From Escherichia coli (GTDB lineage Bacteria > Pseudomonadota > Gammaproteobacteria > Enterobacterales > Enterobacteriaceae): 64,000 bases of DNA. Of this stretch, positions 2,310-39,424 are shown in pieces (the stretch's first letter is position 1; each line of letters begins with the position of its first letter). The notes under the pieces were generated by a model. That model saw only the letters and a list, made by a program, of their open reading frames with translations. It searched no databases and was not told where the DNA came from. A program made the translations under genes and the position numbers. Location: the NCBI RefSeq assembly GCF_003334335.1, contig NZ_QOWQ01000016.1; one strand, given 5' to 3'.

Positions 2310-2458
2310 ATCCGCTCCGTCGTTATGGTTATAAAAACGTGACGAATATACCTACATTGGAGTAACAAATGATCCTACATAGATCACATTACATATGATA
2401 ATTCACCCTTTATTGATCTGGATTAATTTAGAAGTTGCATTGAGAATCCTGGTTAATG

Positions 2459-16532: not shown

Positions 16533-17008
16533 GGTTAGCTCCGAAGCAAAAGCCGGATAATGTTAGCCATAAATAAGGTTGAAAAGACGCGCTGACAATA
16601 CGCCTTTTGACAGCATTTTTCACCTCCTAACTACTTAAAATTGCTATCATTCGTTATTGTTATCTAGTTGTGCAAAACATGCTAATGTAGCCACCAAATC
16701 ATACTACAATTTATTAACTGTTAGCTATAATGGCGAAAAGCGATGCTGAAAGGTGTCAGCTTTGCAAAAATTTGATTTGGATCACGTAATCAGTACCCAG
16801 AAGTGAGTAATCTTGCTTACGCCACCTGGAAGTGACGCATTAGAGATAATAACTCTAATGTTTAAACTCTTTTAGTAAATCACAGTGAGTGTGAGCGCGA
16901 GTAAGCTTTTGATTTTCATAGGTTAAGCAAATCATCACCGCACTGACTATACTCTCGTATTCGAGCAGATGATTTACTAAAAAAGTTTAACATTATCAGG
17001 AGAGCATT

Positions 17009-34600: not shown

Positions 34601-35382
34601 CGCGTCTGCGGCACGTTTGACCCCCAGGCGATGATGTAGCTGGAGTTGTACCAGTCAGCAGATTCCGGTACGTCAGTTTGCTCGCCCCAGGTTTGCGGAG
34701 ACGCAGGAGGCAAGTCGCAGTACCAGTCGTAGAAGCTTAAGCAAGTACCGCCAATCAGCGAGAGATAGCGTGCACCCGATGCGTAAGAAACCATCGACAT
34801 TGCCGGAATTGGCGAGAAACCAGCAACACGGTCCGGGCCGTAGTTTTTGATGGTGTAAACGTTAGATGCGGCGATCAGTTCGTTCACCTCCTGCCAAGAA
34901 GAACGAACAAATCCACCGCGTCCACGCGCCTGCTTAAAGCTTTTCGCTTTATCGGCGTCTTCAATGATAGAAGCCCATGCCTCAACCGGATCGCTATGCA
35001 GCGCCTTCGCTTCACGCCACATTTTCATCAGGCGTTTGCGCATCATCGGGTATTTCAGGCGGTTGGCACTGTAAAGATACCAGGAGTAGCTGGCACCGCG
35101 CGGGCAGCCGCGAGGTTCATGGTTTGGCAGATCCGGACGGGTACGCGGATAGTCAGTCTGCTGGGTTTCCCAGGTGACCAGACCGTTTTTGACGTAGATT
35201 TTCCAGCTGCAGGAGCCGGTGCAGTTTACCCCGTGGGTAGAGCGGACGATTTTGTCATGCTGCCAACGCTGGCGATATCCATCCTCCCAGTCACGGTTGG
35301 TATTGAGAAGCTGGCCATGCCCATCGGCAAAGGTTTCACCCTTCTGTTTGAAGTAGCGAAACCGGTCCAGGAATTTACTCAT
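31639..35382 (-). CDS. narG: Respiratory nitrate reductase 1 alpha subunit
   Basis: 1247 aa molybdopterin oxidoreductase starting MSKFLDRFRYFKQKGETFADGHGQ. Confidence 0.97.
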   Translation of the reverse strand: MSKFLDRFRYFKQKGETFADGHGQLLNTNRDWEDGYRQRWQHDKIVRSTHGVNCTGSCSWKIYVKNGLVTWETQQTDYPRTRPDLPNHEPRGCPRGASYSWYLYSANRLKYPMMRKRLMKMWREAKALHSDPVEAWASIIEDADKAKSFKQARGRGGFVRSSWQEVNELIAASNVYTIKNYGPDRVAGFSPIPAMSMVSYASGARYLSLIGGTCLSFYDWYCDLPPASPQTWGEQTDVPESADWYNSSYIIAWGSNVPQTRTPDAHFFTEVRYKGTKTVAVTPDYAEIAKLCDLWLAPKQGTDAAMALAMGHVMLREFHLDNPSQYFTDYVRRYTDMPMLVMLEERDGYYAAGRMLRAADLVDALGQENNPEWKTVAFNTNGEMVAPNGSIGFRWGEKGKWNLEQRDGKTGEETELQLSLLGSQDEIAEVGFPYFGGDGTEHFNKVELENVLLHKLPVKRLQLADGSTALVTTVYDLTLANYGLERGLNDVNCATSYDDVKAYTPAWAEQITGVSRSQIIRIAREFADNADKTHGRSMIIVGAGLNHWYHLDMNYRGLINMLIFCGCVGQSGGGWAHYVGQEKLRPQTGWQPLAFALDWQRPARHMNSTSYFYNHSSQWRYETVTAEELLSPMADKSRYTGHLIDFNVRAERMGWLPSAPQLGTNPLTIAGEAEKAGMNPVDYTVKSLKEGSIRFAAEQPENGKNHPRNLFIWRSNLLGSSGKGHEFMLKYLLGTEHGIQGKDLGQQGGVKPEEVDWQDNGLEGKLDLVVTLDFRLSSTCLYSDIILPTATWYEKDDMNTSDMHPFIHPLSAAVDPAWEAKSDWEIYKAIAKKFSEVCVGHLGKETDIVTLPIQHDSAAELAQPLDVKDWKKGECDLIPGKTAPHIMVVERDYPATYERFTSIGPLMEKIGNGGKGIAWNTQSEMDLLRKLNYTKAEGPAKGQPMLNTAIDAAEMILTLAPETNGQVAVKAWAALSEFTGRDHTHLALNKEDEKIRFRDIQAQPRKIISSPTWSGLEDEHVSYNAGYTNVHELIPWRTLSGRQQLYQDHQWMRDFGESLLVYRPPIDTRSVKEVIGQKSNGNQEKALNFLTPHQKWGIHSTYSDNLLMLTLGRGGPVVWLSEADAKDLGIADNDWIEVFNSNGALTARAVVSQRVPAGMTMMYHAQERIVNLPGSEITQQRGGIHNSVTRITPKPTHMIGGYAHLAYGFNYYGTVGSNRDEFVVVRKMKNIDWLDGEGNDQVQESVK

Positions 35383-35473
35383 CGGTTTTCTCCTGTGGGA
35401 GCCTGTCGGCCCTCTGATAAATCGACATTGCTAATGTTTAAGGGCAAGGTAACGCTCTGAAACAGCGTGGGAA

Positions 35474-35487
35474 TTGATAACGATCAA
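35474..35487. promoter_or_regulatory. FNR box (TTGATaacgATCAA) of the narG promoter
   Basis: Perfect TTGAT-N4-ATCAA palindrome about 98 bp upstream of the narG start codon. Confidence 0.7.
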
Positions 35488-35897
35488 GAGTGATGGGGAT
35501 GAAAAATAAAGTAAATTCCTAAGATACCCCTTTAGGATAATTAACAGCCACCACATAACAGACTGTAAATTAAGACGTTTTATACCTGTAGTTATTTAAA
35601 CTATTAAGATTTTTATGCAGATGGGTATTAAGGAGTATTCCCCATGGGTAACATATTAATGGCTCTTAATGAAATCCGGCGAAATAAACCATATAACATT
35701 AGTATGTTGTAACTAAATGACGCATAAAAAAAGCGCGACATCATGCCGCGCAAAGGATAATCAAATATTTTACTCTATATAATTCGGTTTACAGGAAGGC
35801 GGCAAGTGAATGAATCCCAGGAGCTTACTAAAGTAAGTGACTGGGGTGAATGAACGCAGCCGCAGCACATGTAACCCGAAGTATGACGAGTAACGGT

Positions 35898-37289
35898 TTA
35901 TTTTTTAGAATGCCGACCATATACCGCCCAGGTAATCACTACGCAGGCGATATAGAAAATCAAAAATACCTTCATTGCGCCGACTGGCGAACCCGTTAAT
36001 GCCAGCGAGCTACCAAACGCTTTCGGGATAAAGAAGCCACCAATCGCGCCAATCGCAGAGATGAAACCCAGCGCCGCCGCCGTGTCGGTTGCCGCTTCAC
36101 GCATCGCACGTTCGTCAGAACCCCCTTCTGCTTTCACGCGATCCATTGTCAGTTTACGGAAGATCACTGAAATCATCTGGAAAGTGGAACCACTACCCAG
36201 CCCAGCTGTCAGGAACAGCGCCAGGAAGACCGCGAAGAACGCCATGAAGCTTCCGCCCTGCCCGTCAGTCGGTAAGGTCAGGAACAGCAGGCCGCTGAAA
36301 ATCGCCATCAGAATAAAGTTCACCAGCGTGACACGAGTTCCGCCCAGACGGTCAGATAATGCACCACCTGCAGAACGCGCCAGCGCACCAATAAACGGCC
36401 CGAAGAAAGCGTATTGCAGAATCTGAACATCCGGGAACTGCGTTTTTGACAGCATTGCAAAGCCCGCGGAGAAGCCGATGAAGGAGCCGAAGGTTGCCAG
36501 ATACAGCAGGCTCATAATCCACAGATGACCCCGTTTGAGTACCGGCAACTGCTCCTTGATGGAGGCTTTCGAGGTAGCAAGATCGTTCATGCCAAACCAC
36601 GCCGCAATGGTGAAGATGGCAAGGAACGGCACCCATATCCAGGACGCATTCGCCAGATACAGCTCAGTCCCATCCGGCTGTTTGACGCCCTGGCTACCAA
36701 ATACTGCGAAAATCGACAGTGATACCACCAGCGGAGCAACCAACTGCATGACGCTGACGCCCATGTTTCCCAGACCACCATTCAGACCCAGCGCGCCACC
36801 CTGCTTCTGTTTCGGAAAGAAGAAGCTGATGTTTGCCATACTGGATGCGAAGTTCGCGCCAGCAAAGCCGCATAGCAGAGAGATGATGATGAAGACGCTA
36901 TAAGGCGTGGAGGTATCCTGCACGGCAAAACCCAGCCAGACGCAAGGAATAATCAGAATACCGGTGCTGAACGCCGTCCAGCGACGACCACCGAAGATAG
37001 GAACCATAAAGGAGTATGGAACACGTAATAACGCGCCAGAAACCGAAGGCAGCGCAGTCAACATAAATAGCTGATCGGTCGTAAAATTAAAGCCGACTTT
37101 CGGTAGGTTCACCGCAACAGCGCTGAACAACATCCATACGCAAAACGCCAGCAGCAGACAGGGAACGGAAATCCACAGGTTGCGGCTGGCAATACGTTGA
37201 CCGCGTTGTTGCCAGAACGCAGGATCTTCCGGTCGCCAATCTGTAATGACAGCTCCAGTAGCCCTTTCGGGGGCGGATGAGTGACTCAT
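35898..37289 (-). CDS. narK: Nitrate/nitrite antiporter NarK (MFS)
   Basis: 463 aa from MSHSSAPERATGAVITDWRPEDPAFWQQ; the ORF-track start is two codons upstream. Confidence 0.93.
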   Translation of the reverse strand: MSHSSAPERATGAVITDWRPEDPAFWQQRGQRIASRNLWISVPCLLLAFCVWMLFSAVAVNLPKVGFNFTTDQLFMLTALPSVSGALLRVPYSFMVPIFGGRRWTAFSTGILIIPCVWLGFAVQDTSTPYSVFIIISLLCGFAGANFASSMANISFFFPKQKQGGALGLNGGLGNMGVSVMQLVAPLVVSLSIFAVFGSQGVKQPDGTELYLANASWIWVPFLAIFTIAAWFGMNDLATSKASIKEQLPVLKRGHLWIMSLLYLATFGSFIGFSAGFAMLSKTQFPDVQILQYAFFGPFIGALARSAGGALSDRLGGTRVTLVNFILMAIFSGLLFLTLPTDGQGGSFMAFFAVFLALFLTAGLGSGSTFQMISVIFRKLTMDRVKAEGGSDERAMREAATDTAAALGFISAIGAIGGFFIPKAFGSSLALTGSPVGAMKVFLIFYIACVVITWAVYGRHSKK

Positions 37290-37348
37290 AGACACCTCTG
37301 ATACTCGTTTCGATGTCTGCCACCTTAGTGTCTGTAGCTAAAGGCAAT

Positions 37349-37400
37349 TTGATGTAAATCAAACGATAAGATAACTTTATCTATCATTGATATTTATCAT
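37349..37400. promoter_or_regulatory. narK promoter: two FNR boxes and an adjacent NarL heptamer
   Basis: TTGATgtaaATCAA at 37349-37362 (perfect), TTGATatttATCAT at 37387-37400, and TACCCAT at 37401-37407; box centres are 38 bp apart. Confidence 0.65.
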
Positions 37401-37627
37401 TACCCATAGTGAGTACAGTGACTTCATAAAAATTATGAGATTTTTCACGGTGCTGTAAAATCCCTACCCTTACCGATGTAAAGCGACTAACCACACGGCA
37501 AATAAGGAGTAACTCTTTCCGGGTATGGGTATACTTCAGCCAATAGCCGAGAATACTGCCATTCCAGAATGTATCGTCACATTCATTAAGGTTATTGCTC
37601 ATTTAAAGCCTGAAGGAAGAGGTTTAC

Positions 37628-39424
37628 ATGCTTAAACGTTGTCTCTCTCCGCTCACCCTGGTTAATCAGGTTGCGCTTATTGTGTTGCTTTCTACTGCTA
37701 TTGGACTGGCAGGGATGGCGGTTTCTGGCTGGCTGGTGCAAGGCGTTCAGGGCAGCGCCCATGCGATCAACAAAGCGGGATCGCTGCGCATGCAAAGTTA
37801 CCGTCTGTTGGCGGCAGTGCCATTAAGCGAGAAAGACAAGCCCTTAATTAAAGAGATGGAACAAACGGCATTTAGCGCCGAGTTGACTCGAGCAGCAGAA
37901 CGAGACGGACAACTGGCGCAATTACAGGGTTTACAAGATTACTGGCGTAATGAACTGATCCCTGCGCTGATGCGTGCACAAAACCGAGAAACGGTGTCAG
38001 CGGATGTCAGCCAGTTTGTTGCCGGGCTTGATCAACTGGTATCTGGTTTTGACCGCACCACGGAAATGCGCATCGAGACAGTGGTACTGGTCCATCGGGT
38101 AATGGCGGTATTTATGGCACTTTTACTGGTGTTCACTATTATCTGGTTGCGGGCGCGACTGCTACAACCGTGGCGGCAACTGCTGGCAATGGCGAGTGCC
38201 GTCAGTCATCGCGATTTTACCCAACGCGCAAACATCAGCGGGCGCAACGAAATGGCGATGCTTGGAACTGCGTTGAACAATATGTCTGCAGAACTGGCCG
38301 AAAGTTATGCCGTACTTGAGCAGCGGGTTCAGGAGAAAACCGCCGGGCTGGAGCATAAAAATCAGATCCTCTCTTTTTTATGGCAGGCTAACCGCCGTTT
38401 GCATTCCCGCGCCCCGCTGTGTGAACGCCTGTCACCTGTACTCAACGGCTTACAGAATTTAACCCTGCTACGTGATATCGAATTGCGGGTGTATGACACT
38501 GATGATGAAGAGAATCATCAGGAGTTTACCTGCCAGCCAGATATGACTTGTGATGATAAAGGCTGCCAGCTCTGCCCGCGCGGCGTATTACCCGTTGGTG
38601 ATCGCGGCACGACCCTGAAGTGGCGGCTGGCTGACTCTCATACGCAGTACGGTATTTTGCTGGCGACCCTGCCGCAGGGGCGTCATCTTAGCCATGATCA
38701 ACAACAACTGGTGGATACCCTGGTTGAACAACTCACCGCCACGCTGGCGCTGGATCGCCATCAGGAACGTCAGCAACAGTTGATCGTGATGGAAGAGCGT
38801 GCCACCATTGCGCGCGAACTGCATGATTCTATTGCCCAATCTCTCTCTTGCATGAAGATGCAGGTGAGTTGTTTACAGATGCAGGGCGATGCGCTGCCAG
38901 AAAGCAGCCGCGAACTGTTAAGTCAGATCCGTAACGAACTGAATGCATCCTGGGCGCAGTTGCGTGAATTGCTCACCACATTCCGCTTGCAGCTCACCGA
39001 GCCTGGATTACGTCCGGCGCTGGAGGCGAGTTGCGAAGAGTACAGCGCCAAATTTGGCTTCCCGGTGAAGCTGGATTATCAATTGCCGCCTCGCCTGGTG
39101 CCTTCGCATCAGGCAATCCACTTGTTGCAAATTGCCCGTGAGGCATTAAGTAACGCCCTCAAACATTCGCAAGCGAGTGAAGTCGTGGTGACGGTGGCGC
39201 AAAACGATAATCAGGTCAAACTGACCGTCCAGGATAACGGCTGCGGCGTGCCTGAAAATGCCATCCGCAGCAATCACTACGGCATGATAATAATGCGCGA
39301 TCGTGCGCAAAGTTTACGAGGCGATTGCCGCGTCCGCCGTCGTGAATCAGGTGGCACCGAAGTGGTGGTCACCTTTATTCCCGAAAAAACTTTCACAGAC
39401 GTCCAAGGAGATACCCATGAGTAA
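37628..39424 (+). CDS. narX: Nitrate/nitrite sensor histidine kinase NarX
   Basis: 598 aa with two TM segments, HAMP, and an H-box ([18 protein letters not shown]) kinase core. Confidence 0.95.

What the first reader, a model, noticed from the sequence alone, without database searches (positions are those of the whole stretch)
35383..37627. Anaerobic control architecture of narGHJI and narK is intact
A perfect FNR box sits upstream of narG (35474-35487), and narK has a perfect FNR box (37349-37362) plus a second near-perfect one 38 bp further upstream (37387-37400) abutting a NarL heptamer TACCCAT. The narG far-upstream region (about 35625-35650) carries inverted NarL-like heptamers AGGAGTA/ATGGGTA. 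This is expected biology and confirms orientation and start-codon choices.
Basis: partly seen in the sequence, partly recalled or inferred. Interest (0 to 1): 0.15.

Follow-up and report, generated by a model that had tools for sequence, protein, structure and literature searches.

The report
Known narG and narK promoter operators
This stretch holds the textbook oxygen- and nitrate-responsive control regions of the E. coli nitrate reductase (narG) and nitrate transporter (narK) genes, base-for-base identical to the K-12 laboratory strain, so it is ordinary, already-described biology.

Summary
Window 35383-37627 is 100% identical to E. coli K-12 MG1655. The narG box (35474-35487) and the proximal narK box (37349-37362) are the same 14-mers that a published FNR ChIP-seq study lists as bound in vivo at -41.5. 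With transcription starts set from those boxes, the NarL heptamers fall at the published narG positions (-89, -185, -195, -208) and at narK -90, -194 and -214.

- The narG far-upstream heptamers all point the same way. They are a direct array, not an inverted pair.
- A perfect FNR box is not proof of function. The third perfect box in the window, inside purU, is reported as unbound.

Comparison across genera shows the -41.5 boxes and the distal NarL arrays are conserved in Enterobacteriaceae. The second narK box (-79.5) was found only in Escherichia. The abutting -90 heptamer is dimorphic within E. coli (81% TACCCAT, 19% TATCCAT).

Verdict: already known, low interest.

The parts
31639..35382 (-). 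narG coding sequence (nitrate reductase A alpha subunit). The start codon is ATG at 35382.
   Evidence: ORF of 1247 aa. The N-terminus is MSKFLDRFRYFKQ.... It maps to K-12 b1224, 1279864-1283607.
35383..35439 (-). Inferred narG 5' untranslated leader of 57 nt, with AGGAG Shine-Dalgarno. The transcription start is set at 35439.
   Evidence: The start is inferred from the FNR box at -41.5 (Myers Table 1). It agrees with the -10/+1 layout of the nar promoter primer in PMC5889552. The leader sequence is strongly conserved across genera. No transcription start was mapped here.
35446..35451 (-). narG -10 hexamer TACCTT (-12 to -7).
   Evidence: Sequence. It aligns with the TATAAT substituted at this position in the engineered nar promoter primer. 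The TTA core is conserved across genera.
35474..35487 (.). narG FNR box TTGATCGTTATCAA (narG sense), centred at -41.5. This is the class II activator position.
   Evidence: Perfect match. It is the identical 14-mer listed as ChIP-bound for narG. It is perfect at a fixed distance from the ATG in 12 of 14 enteric loci. It is invariant in six diverse E. coli strains.
35525..35540 (.). narG -89 NarL site. It has an exact heptamer TACCCCT (35525-35531, antisense to narG) and a decayed partner (TTATCCT). The arrangement is 7-2-7-like.
   Evidence: The high-affinity NarL-P footprint is centred at -89 (PMC4549865). It is a full inverted repeat TACCACCAAGGTGGTA in Kluyvera.
35545..35615 (.). AT-rich spacer between the proximal and distal NarL sites, where the published IHF site lies. 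The exact site was not resolved here.
   Evidence: IHF is required and is drawn between the NarL sites (PMC4549865, PMC9314961). The best consensus hit has 2 mismatches (AATTAAGACGTTT, 35568-35580, about -135). Part of this spacer is hypervariable within E. coli.
35621..35650 (-). narG distal NarL array of three same-orientation heptamers: TACCCAT (-208, 35644-35650), TACTCCT (-195, 35631-35637) and TACCCAT (-185, 35621-35627).
   Evidence: This is the lower-affinity NarL-P footprint region at -195. A 34-mer spanning it matches in 5410 of 5426 E. coli genomes. The block TACYCCTTAATACC is conserved across genera.
35726..35909 (-). NarS, the small RNA derived from the narK 3' UTR. It ends at the narK intrinsic terminator (stem 35733-35751, then a T-run).
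   Evidence: K-12 annotation b4813, 1279337-1279520, mapped by K12 = 1315246 - w. Terminator scan. NarS biology is in PMC7038943.
35770..35892 (.). ERIC-like 123-bp repeat element inserted just after the narK stop codon, inside the NarS precursor region.
   Evidence: It is absent from four of six aligned E. coli strains and from about half of the ranked genome list, shown by 94-95% coverage in two pieces. A plasmid copy has 87% identity (H45). There is a sub-threshold Rfam V_AS5 hit. An E. coli-specific insertion here is noted in PMC7038943.
35898..37289 (-). narK coding sequence (nitrate/nitrite antiporter). The start codon is ATG at 37289, not the upstream in-frame GTG at 37295.
   Evidence: K-12 b1223 is 1277957-1279348. 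The GTG is part of the GAGGTG Shine-Dalgarno and is lost in two other genera.
37290..37314 (-). Inferred narK leader of 25 nt. The transcription start is set at 37314. The -10 hexamer TAAGGT lies at 37322-37327.
   Evidence: Inferred from the FNR box at -41.5. The -10 is conserved as TAWKGT across genera. No transcription start was mapped here.
37349..37362 (.). narK proximal FNR box TTGATTTACATCAA (narK sense), centred at -41.5.
   Evidence: Perfect match. It is the identical 14-mer listed as ChIP-bound for narX/narK. It is perfect at a conserved offset in all 22 enteric loci that have enough upstream DNA. The surrounding 34-mer matches in 5280 of 5426 E. coli genomes.
37387..37400 (.). narK distal FNR-like box ATGATAAATATCAA (narK sense), one mismatch, centred at -79.5.
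   Evidence: It is exact in 5408 of 5426 E. coli genomes (combined). It is present in E. albertii and has 2 mismatches in E. coli E69. It is absent (4-10 mismatches, replaced by a T-tract) in all other genera sampled. It is not in the Myers predicted-site table.
37401..37415 (.). narK proximal NarL region. It has heptamer TACCCAT (37401-37407, antisense, -90) and an opposed near-heptamer TACTCAC (37409-37415, sense, -98).
   Evidence: The TACTCAC/TACTCAT half is conserved across genera. The -90 heptamer is dimorphic in E. coli: TACCCAT in 4396 genomes and TATCCAT in 1012.
37505..37531 (-). narK distal NarL array: TACCCAT (-214, 37525-37531), overlapping near-heptamer TACCCGG (-208, 37519-37525) and TACTCCT (-194, 37505-37511).
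   Evidence: Heptamers sit at exactly -214 and -194 in most of the enteric genera sampled, and -208 is exact in several.
37628..39424 (+). narX coding sequence. It is transcribed divergently from narK and bounds the shared 338-bp control region.
   Evidence: ORF of 598 aa. K-12 b1222.

Best explanation
These are the two well-characterised FNR- plus NarL-dependent control regions of the E. coli nitrate respiration locus. The window shows them on its minus strand.

Mechanism, from established knowledge of FNR and NarL:
- At each promoter an FNR dimer is active only when its [4Fe-4S] cluster is intact, that is, without oxygen. It binds a perfect TTGAT-N4-ATCAA box centred at -41.5 and activates RNA polymerase as a class II activator at a weak -10 hexamer.
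- Nitrate is sensed by NarX, whose gene starts at the right edge of the interval. NarX phosphorylates NarL.
- NarL-P binds TACYYMT heptamers in a proximal region at about -89/-90 and in a distal array at about -185 to -214.
- At narG, IHF bends the AT-rich spacer so that the distal NarL array can contribute to activation.
- narK transcription also yields the 3'-UTR small RNA NarS, which ends at the terminator about 290 bp upstream of the narG start.

Shown here: presence of the motifs, their exact positions, identity to K-12, and conservation within E. coli and across genera.

Taken from the literature: FNR occupancy, NarL-P footprints at narG -89 and -195, the IHF requirement, and NarS.

Inferred: the transcription starts, and the function of the narK -79.5 box and of the narK heptamers.
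For: - The interval is 100% identical to MG1655 and to many other E. coli. The flanking 13 kb is 99.86% identical and collinear, with the K-12 gene annotation.
- The FNR 14-mers are identical to the ChIP-bound narG and narX/narK sites at -41.5.
- The heptamers fall at -89 and -195, the published NarL-P footprint regions.
- The -10 and +1 agree with the nar promoter layout in PMC5889552.
- Motifs are enriched over chance.
- Within E. coli the operator blocks are much better conserved than a control spacer block: 5410 and 5280 genomes against 1747, as the strain alignments also show.
- Across genera, perfect -41.5 boxes sit at fixed offsets and the distal heptamer arrays are conserved at both promoters.
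- narK and NarS depend on FNR and NarL in Salmonella (PMC7038943).
Against: Nothing contradicts this reading. The limits are these:
- Transcription starts were not measured here.
- I could not check the curated NarL, IHF and second-FNR sites of the narK promoter against a held paper. The primary papers (Bonnefoy & DeMoss 1992; Kolesnikow et al. 1992; Li, Kustu & Stewart 1994) are not in the library. The -79.5 label rests on my own recollection plus geometry.
- The -79.5 box is not in the Myers predicted-site list and is not conserved outside Escherichia.
- No IHF consensus match better than 2 mismatches was found at narG.
Confidence: 0.96

Rival explanations
1. The distal narK box at -79.5 is not a working FNR activator site. 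It would instead be a by-product of an AT-rich sequence block specific to Escherichia, or it would serve another purpose such as FNR-dependent repression of the divergent narX promoter.
For: It is absent from all non-Escherichia enteric narK promoters sampled, where a T-tract occupies the position. It is not listed among the predicted high-scoring FNR sites of the ChIP-seq study. Its 38-bp spacing from the proximal box is not a whole number of helical turns. FNR repression of narX in vitro is cited in PMC1805755.
Against: It is exact in 5408 of 5426 E. coli genomes and is retained in E. albertii. The chance of a one-mismatch box this close to another is about 0.005. By my recollection, unverified here, mutational work found both narK boxes functional (Bonnefoy & DeMoss 1992).
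Confidence: 0.25
2. The motif matches are chance consensus hits with no regulatory role.
For: A perfect FNR box inside purU (26972-26985) is reported as unbound in vivo, so a perfect match alone is not sufficient. Single TACYYMT heptamers are common: 44 in the window against about 33 expected.
Against: The sites coincide with experimentally bound sites. They sit at fixed promoter geometry. They are enriched at P of about 1e-7. They are conserved in position across genera while the flanking spacers diverge.
Confidence: 0.01

Closest known systems
E. coli K-12 narGHJI promoter (narGp): class II FNR site at -41.5, NarL-P sites at -89 and around -195, IHF in between
   Same: The sequence is identical. 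It has the same FNR 14-mer. The heptamers fall at -89, -185, -195 and -208, matching the published footprint regions.
   Different: Nothing differs in this interval. The window as a whole is not MG1655 itself: there are 17 mismatches in the flanking 13 kb and a different repeat number near tyrT/tyrV.
E. coli K-12 narK promoter (narKp) and the divergent narXL control region
   Same: The sequence is identical. The proximal FNR 14-mer is the ChIP-bound narX/narK site. The layout mirrors narGp: FNR at -41.5, a NarL region at about -90, and a distal NarL array at about -194 to -214.
   Different: It has an extra upstream FNR-like box at -79.5 that narGp lacks. That box is restricted to Escherichia in the sample. 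About 19% of E. coli genomes carry TATCCAT instead of TACCCAT at -90.
NarS, the 3'-UTR-derived Hfq-dependent small RNA of narK (Wang et al., PMC7038943)
   Same: It is annotated at the corresponding K-12 coordinates and ends at the narK terminator. Its expression is driven by the narK promoter studied here.
   Different: The E. coli version carries an insertion after the stop codon. Here that insertion is a 123-bp ERIC-like element, present in this window but missing from many E. coli strains.

Membership tests
Class II FNR-activated promoter | FNR consensus TTGAT-N4-ATCAA centred near -41.5 relative to the transcription start | tested here: met
   Perfect boxes are at 35474-35487 and 37349-37362. 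Their position at -41.5 is taken from Myers Table 1. It is consistent with -10 hexamers TACCTT and TAAGGT at the expected distance.
Class II FNR-activated promoter | FNR occupancy in vivo and FNR-dependent anaerobic activation | not testable with these tools
   This comes from the literature only. Both 14-mers are listed as ChIP-bound, and narK and narGHJI are activated by FNR.
NarL-regulated operator (TACYYMT heptamers, 7-2-7 preferred) | Heptamers matching TACYYMT clustered upstream of the promoter | tested here: met
   Seven exact heptamers lie in 681 bp against about 0.4 expected. Their positions are conserved across genera.
NarL-regulated operator (TACYYMT heptamers, 7-2-7 preferred) | Inverted 7-2-7 pair | tested here: not met
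   No exact 7-2-7 is present in either region. The best is narG -89, TACCCCTTTAGGATAA, with 2 mismatches. This agrees with PMC4549865, which states that the narG promoter lacks 7-2-7 sites. The distal arrays are direct repeats.
NarL-regulated operator (TACYYMT heptamers, 7-2-7 preferred) | NarL-phosphate binding | not testable with these tools
   Published DNase I footprints exist at narG -89 and -195. The narK footprint paper (Li, Kustu & Stewart 1994) is not held here.
IHF-assisted activation at narG | IHF site (WATCAANNNNTTR) between the proximal and distal NarL sites | tested here: inconclusive
   Only 2-mismatch matches were found in the spacer; the best is 35568-35580. The IHF requirement and the approximate location come from the literature.
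NarS 3'-UTR small RNA | Location at the narK 3' end, finishing at a Rho-independent terminator | tested here: met
   The terminator GCGCGGCATGATGTCGCGC followed by T7 lies at 35751-35726 on the minus strand. It coincides with the annotated K-12 narS 3' end.

The most novel reading that the evidence does not exclude
Fine-scale regulatory variation may sit on top of a known system. The upstream narK FNR-like box (-79.5) and the AT-rich block around it look like a gain specific to Escherichia. The NarL heptamer abutting it is dimorphic in E. coli: TACCCAT in about 81% of genomes and TATCCAT in about 19%. The ERIC-like insertion inside the NarS precursor is present in only about half of strains. 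Together these could make oxygen and nitrate induction of narK and NarS differ between E. coli lineages and between Escherichia and other enterics.
Probability: 0.2. Interest if true: 0.25.

Novelty: already known. Interest (0 to 1): 0.06.

Why it matters
The finding matters mainly as quality control. It shows that this strain's nitrate-respiration switch is the standard K-12 one, and that gene orientation and starts in this part of the window are called correctly.

The only mildly new material is comparative:
- The second narK FNR box is confined to Escherichia.
- One NarL heptamer is dimorphic among E. coli genomes.
- The NarS precursor carries a repeat-element insertion that is present in some strains and absent in others.

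These are small leads for strain-to-strain differences in nitrate use, a trait linked to gut colonisation. None of them changes the understanding of the system.

Tried and rejected
- I tried to read the primary narK and narG promoter papers and the narX expression paper by PMC id (PMC207399, PMC151514, PMC177108). None is held. Curated narK NarL, IHF and second-FNR positions therefore could not be cited directly.
- A full-text search for 'narK' with '79.5' and 'FNR' returned only irrelevant papers. Searching for the operator sequences themselves found only engineering papers.
- Strict and 1-mismatch IHF consensus scans found nothing in the expected spacers. The 2-mismatch hits are too weak to call.
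- The generic sigma-70 scan did not recover either FNR-dependent promoter, as expected for weak class II promoters. Its one strong hit (TTTACA-16-CATAAT, 37459-37432, minus strand) is no more than shuffles give and is not conserved in other genera.
- The Rfam scan gave no family above threshold in the interval.
- Folding the narG leader gave no significant structure, z = -0.9.
- I first assumed the window was MG1655. I rejected that after a 116-bp coordinate offset led to the tyrT/tyrV repeat difference and 17 substitutions.
- Two NarG-like loci without any FNR box (L053, L120) may be the narZ paralogue or divergent orthologues. I did not resolve this.
Full report
**What is there**

The interval 35383-37627 runs from the narG start codon to the narX start codon. 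All nar structural genes lie on the window's minus strand:
- narI 28720-29397, followed upstream by narJ and narH
- narG 31639-35382
- narK 35898-37289

narX starts at 37628 on the plus strand.

A megablast against 5,426 complete E. coli genomes finds the 2,245-bp interval in 5,417 of them. It is 100% identical in K-12 MG1655 and many other strains. The surrounding 13 kb aligns collinearly to NC_000913.3 1274000-1287084 at 99.86% identity. This gives the mapping K-12 coordinate = 1315246 - window coordinate for this part of the window. The window is not MG1655 itself. It has 17 substitutions in that stretch and a different repeat number in the tyrT/tyrV region.

**Checking the observation**

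- TTGATAACGATCAA at 35474-35487
- TTGATGTAAATCAA at 37349-37362
- TTGATATTTATCAT at 37387-37400 (one mismatch, centre 38 bp from the proximal box)
- TACCCAT at 37401-37407, directly abutting the second narK box
- AGGAGTA at 35631-35637 and ATGGGTA at 35644-35650

These are not chance occurrences:
- The window has three perfect FNR boxes where shuffles give 0.17.
- A one-mismatch box within 100 bp of another has a probability of about 0.005.
- The two control regions hold seven exact TACYYMT heptamers in 681 bp where about 0.4 are expected, P of about 1e-7.

The one descriptive error concerns orientation. The narG far-upstream heptamers are not inverted relative to one another. On the narG-sense strand they read TACCCAT, TACTCCT, TACCCAT, all in the same direction, and there are three of them rather than two.

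**Alignment with known operators**

Myers et al. 2013 (PMC3688515) list narGHJI and narK among operons directly activated by FNR, each with a site at -41.5. Their site table gives TTGATCGTTATCAA for narG and TTGATTTACATCAA for narX/narK, both marked as bound. These are the reverse complements of the two perfect boxes here.

Setting the boxes at -41.5 puts the transcription starts at 35439 (narG) and 37314 (narK).
- For narG this gives a -10 hexamer TACCTT at -12 to -7. That is exactly the position where an engineered nar promoter primer carries TATAAT before GCCCTT and the +1 (PMC5889552).
- For narK the -10 hexamer is TAAGGT.

On this numbering the narG heptamers centre at -89, -185, -195 and -208. 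PMC4549865 describes the NarL-phosphate footprints at narG as a high-affinity region at -89 and a lower-affinity region at -195. It says both are needed, together with FNR and IHF, and it notes that narG lacks true 7-2-7 sites. This matches what I find: the best 7-2-7 candidate is TACCCCTTTAGGATAA, with two mismatches.

At narK the same numbering gives:
- the second FNR-like box at -79.5
- the abutting heptamer at -90
- an opposed near-heptamer TACTCAC at -98

The two promoters are therefore built alike.

- The narG -89 site, which is the strongest NarL site.
- The narK distal array.
- The IHF spacer.
- Everything in the 3' end of narK. K-12 annotates the small RNA NarS at 1279337-1279520, which is window 35909-35726 on the minus strand. 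It ends at a clear intrinsic terminator at 35751-35726. NarS is released from the narK mRNA by RNase E, depends on FNR and NarL through the narK promoter, and represses nirC (PMC7038943).
- A 123-bp ERIC-like element at 35770-35892, just after the narK stop codon. It is absent from four of six aligned strains and from roughly half of the ranked genome list.

**A caution on method**

The third perfect FNR box in the window (26972-26985) lies inside purU. The same ChIP-seq study lists it as not bound. A perfect box is therefore not evidence of function by itself. The narG and narK boxes are credible because of their promoter geometry, published occupancy and conservation.

**Conservation within E. 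coli**

I used exact 34-mer searches to count how many of the 5,426 genomes match each block:

| Block | Genomes matched |
|---|---|
| narG -185 to -208 | 5,410 |
| narK -41.5 | 5,280 |
| narG -41.5 | 4,287 |
| Control spacer, narG -101 to -134 | 1,747 |

In the six-strain alignment the only changes near the narG -41.5 box lie 2 bp and 4 bp outside the 14-bp box. That accounts for the lower count for that block.

The 34-mer spanning the narK -79.5 box and the -90 heptamer exists in two forms:
- TACCCAT in 4,396 genomes
- TATCCAT in 1,012 genomes

The FNR-like box is unchanged in both forms.

**Conservation across genera**

I scanned one genome per species for a conserved NarK peptide, which is independent of promoter sequence.

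At narK:
- All 22 enteric loci with enough upstream DNA carry a perfect FNR box at a near-constant offset from the coding sequence. None of the roughly 96 non-enteric loci does.
- Heptamers at exactly -214 and -194 recur in most of the enteric genera sampled. The -98 half-site, the -10 hexamer and the Shine-Dalgarno/ATG are also conserved.
- The in-frame GTG upstream of the narK ATG is part of the Shine-Dalgarno and is lost in two genera. This supports ATG 37289 as the start.
- The -79.5 box is found only in Escherichia: E. coli, E. albertii, and with two mismatches in strain E69. Elsewhere a T-tract occupies that position.

At narG:
- The FNR box is perfect at a fixed distance from the ATG in 12 of 14 loci.
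- The block TACYCCTTAATACC (-195/-185) is conserved.
- The -89 site is a full inverted repeat in Kluyvera but half-decayed in E. coli.

**Interpretation and verdict**

This is the known anaerobic (FNR) and nitrate (NarX-NarL, IHF) control architecture of narGHJI and narK, intact and identical to K-12.

It confirms gene orientation. It supports the start codons only indirectly; the Shine-Dalgarno spacing, the K-12 annotation and the cross-genus comparison do that job.

Two things remain unverified here. The first is the curated status of the narK -79.5 box. The second is the status of the narK NarL and IHF sites. The primary papers are not in the library, so the -79.5 label rests on geometry and on my recollection of Bonnefoy & DeMoss 1992.

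Novelty: already known. Interest is low. The only modest leads are the Escherichia-specific second FNR box, the dimorphic -90 heptamer, and the insertion in the NarS precursor that is present in some strains and absent in others.

Noticed in passing
window 35726-35909 (minus strand): The narK 3' UTR encodes the annotated small RNA NarS (K-12 b4813). It ends at an intrinsic terminator (stem 35733-35751 plus T-run).
   Followed up: partly
window 35770-35892: A 123-bp ERIC-like repeat element is inserted just after the narK stop codon, inside the NarS precursor. It is present here and in K-12 but absent from about half of ranked E. coli genomes. An 87%-identical copy sits on a plasmid (H45).
   Followed up: partly
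window 26972-26985: A third perfect FNR box (TTGATGCTTATCAA) lies inside the purU coding sequence. The published FNR ChIP-seq site table lists it as a high-scoring site that is not bound in vivo.
   Followed up: yes
window 37401-37407: The narK -90 NarL heptamer is dimorphic in E. coli. TACCCAT is in 4,396 genomes and TATCCAT (breaking the consensus C at position 3) is in 1,012 of 5,426, for example APEC IMT5155 and CMZE087.
   Followed up: yes
window 37365-37400; loci L011-L126: The narK -79.5 FNR-like box and the AT-rich block around it occur only in Escherichia among the enteric genomes sampled. Enterobacter, Kluyvera, Pluralibacter, Pseudescherichia, Siccibacter and others have a T-tract there instead.
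   Followed up: yes
window 27130-28542: The tyrT/tyrV/rttR tandem-repeat region aligns to MG1655 with shifted, overlapping pieces. This indicates a different repeat number and explains a 116-bp coordinate offset against K-12. The window is therefore a close relative of MG1655 and not MG1655 itself.
   Followed up: partly
window 35383-35439 (minus strand): The narG 5' leader (GCAATGTCGATTTATCAGAGRGCC...GGCTCC...ACAGGAGA) is more conserved across enteric genera than most of the promoter. A small GC hairpin before the Shine-Dalgarno is possible, but the fold is not better than shuffles (z = -0.9).
   Followed up: partly
window 35442-35455 (minus strand, narG -16 to -3): A 2026 paper reports the 14-nt motif GCGUUACCGUCCCG as the CsrN small-RNA target in the Cronobacter sakazakii narG 5' UTR. 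It resembles E. coli GCGTTACCTTGCCC, which overlaps the -10 hexamer and lies upstream of the E. coli transcription start. If the start is conserved, that motif would not be in the mRNA.
   Followed up: no
window 35547-35553 and 35521-35523: Short hypervariable patches flank the conserved narG -89 site within E. coli (for example GTGGTGGC versus GCTATAAA). A 34-mer over this spacer is exact in only 1,747 genomes.
   Followed up: partly
window 2413-2426, 2458-2471, 16772-16785: Three one-mismatch FNR boxes elsewhere in the window have the same sequences as the published ChIP-bound sites upstream of ompW (two sites 45 bp apart) and between adhE and ychE.
   Followed up: partly
loci L053 and L120: Two Enterobacteriaceae loci have a NarK-like and a NarG-like gene (about 90% N-terminal identity) but no FNR box within one mismatch upstream of the NarG-like gene (L120 also lacks a perfect box upstream of the NarK-like gene; L053 has too little upstream DNA there). 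They may be the narU-narZ paralogue or a divergent lineage.
   Followed up: no
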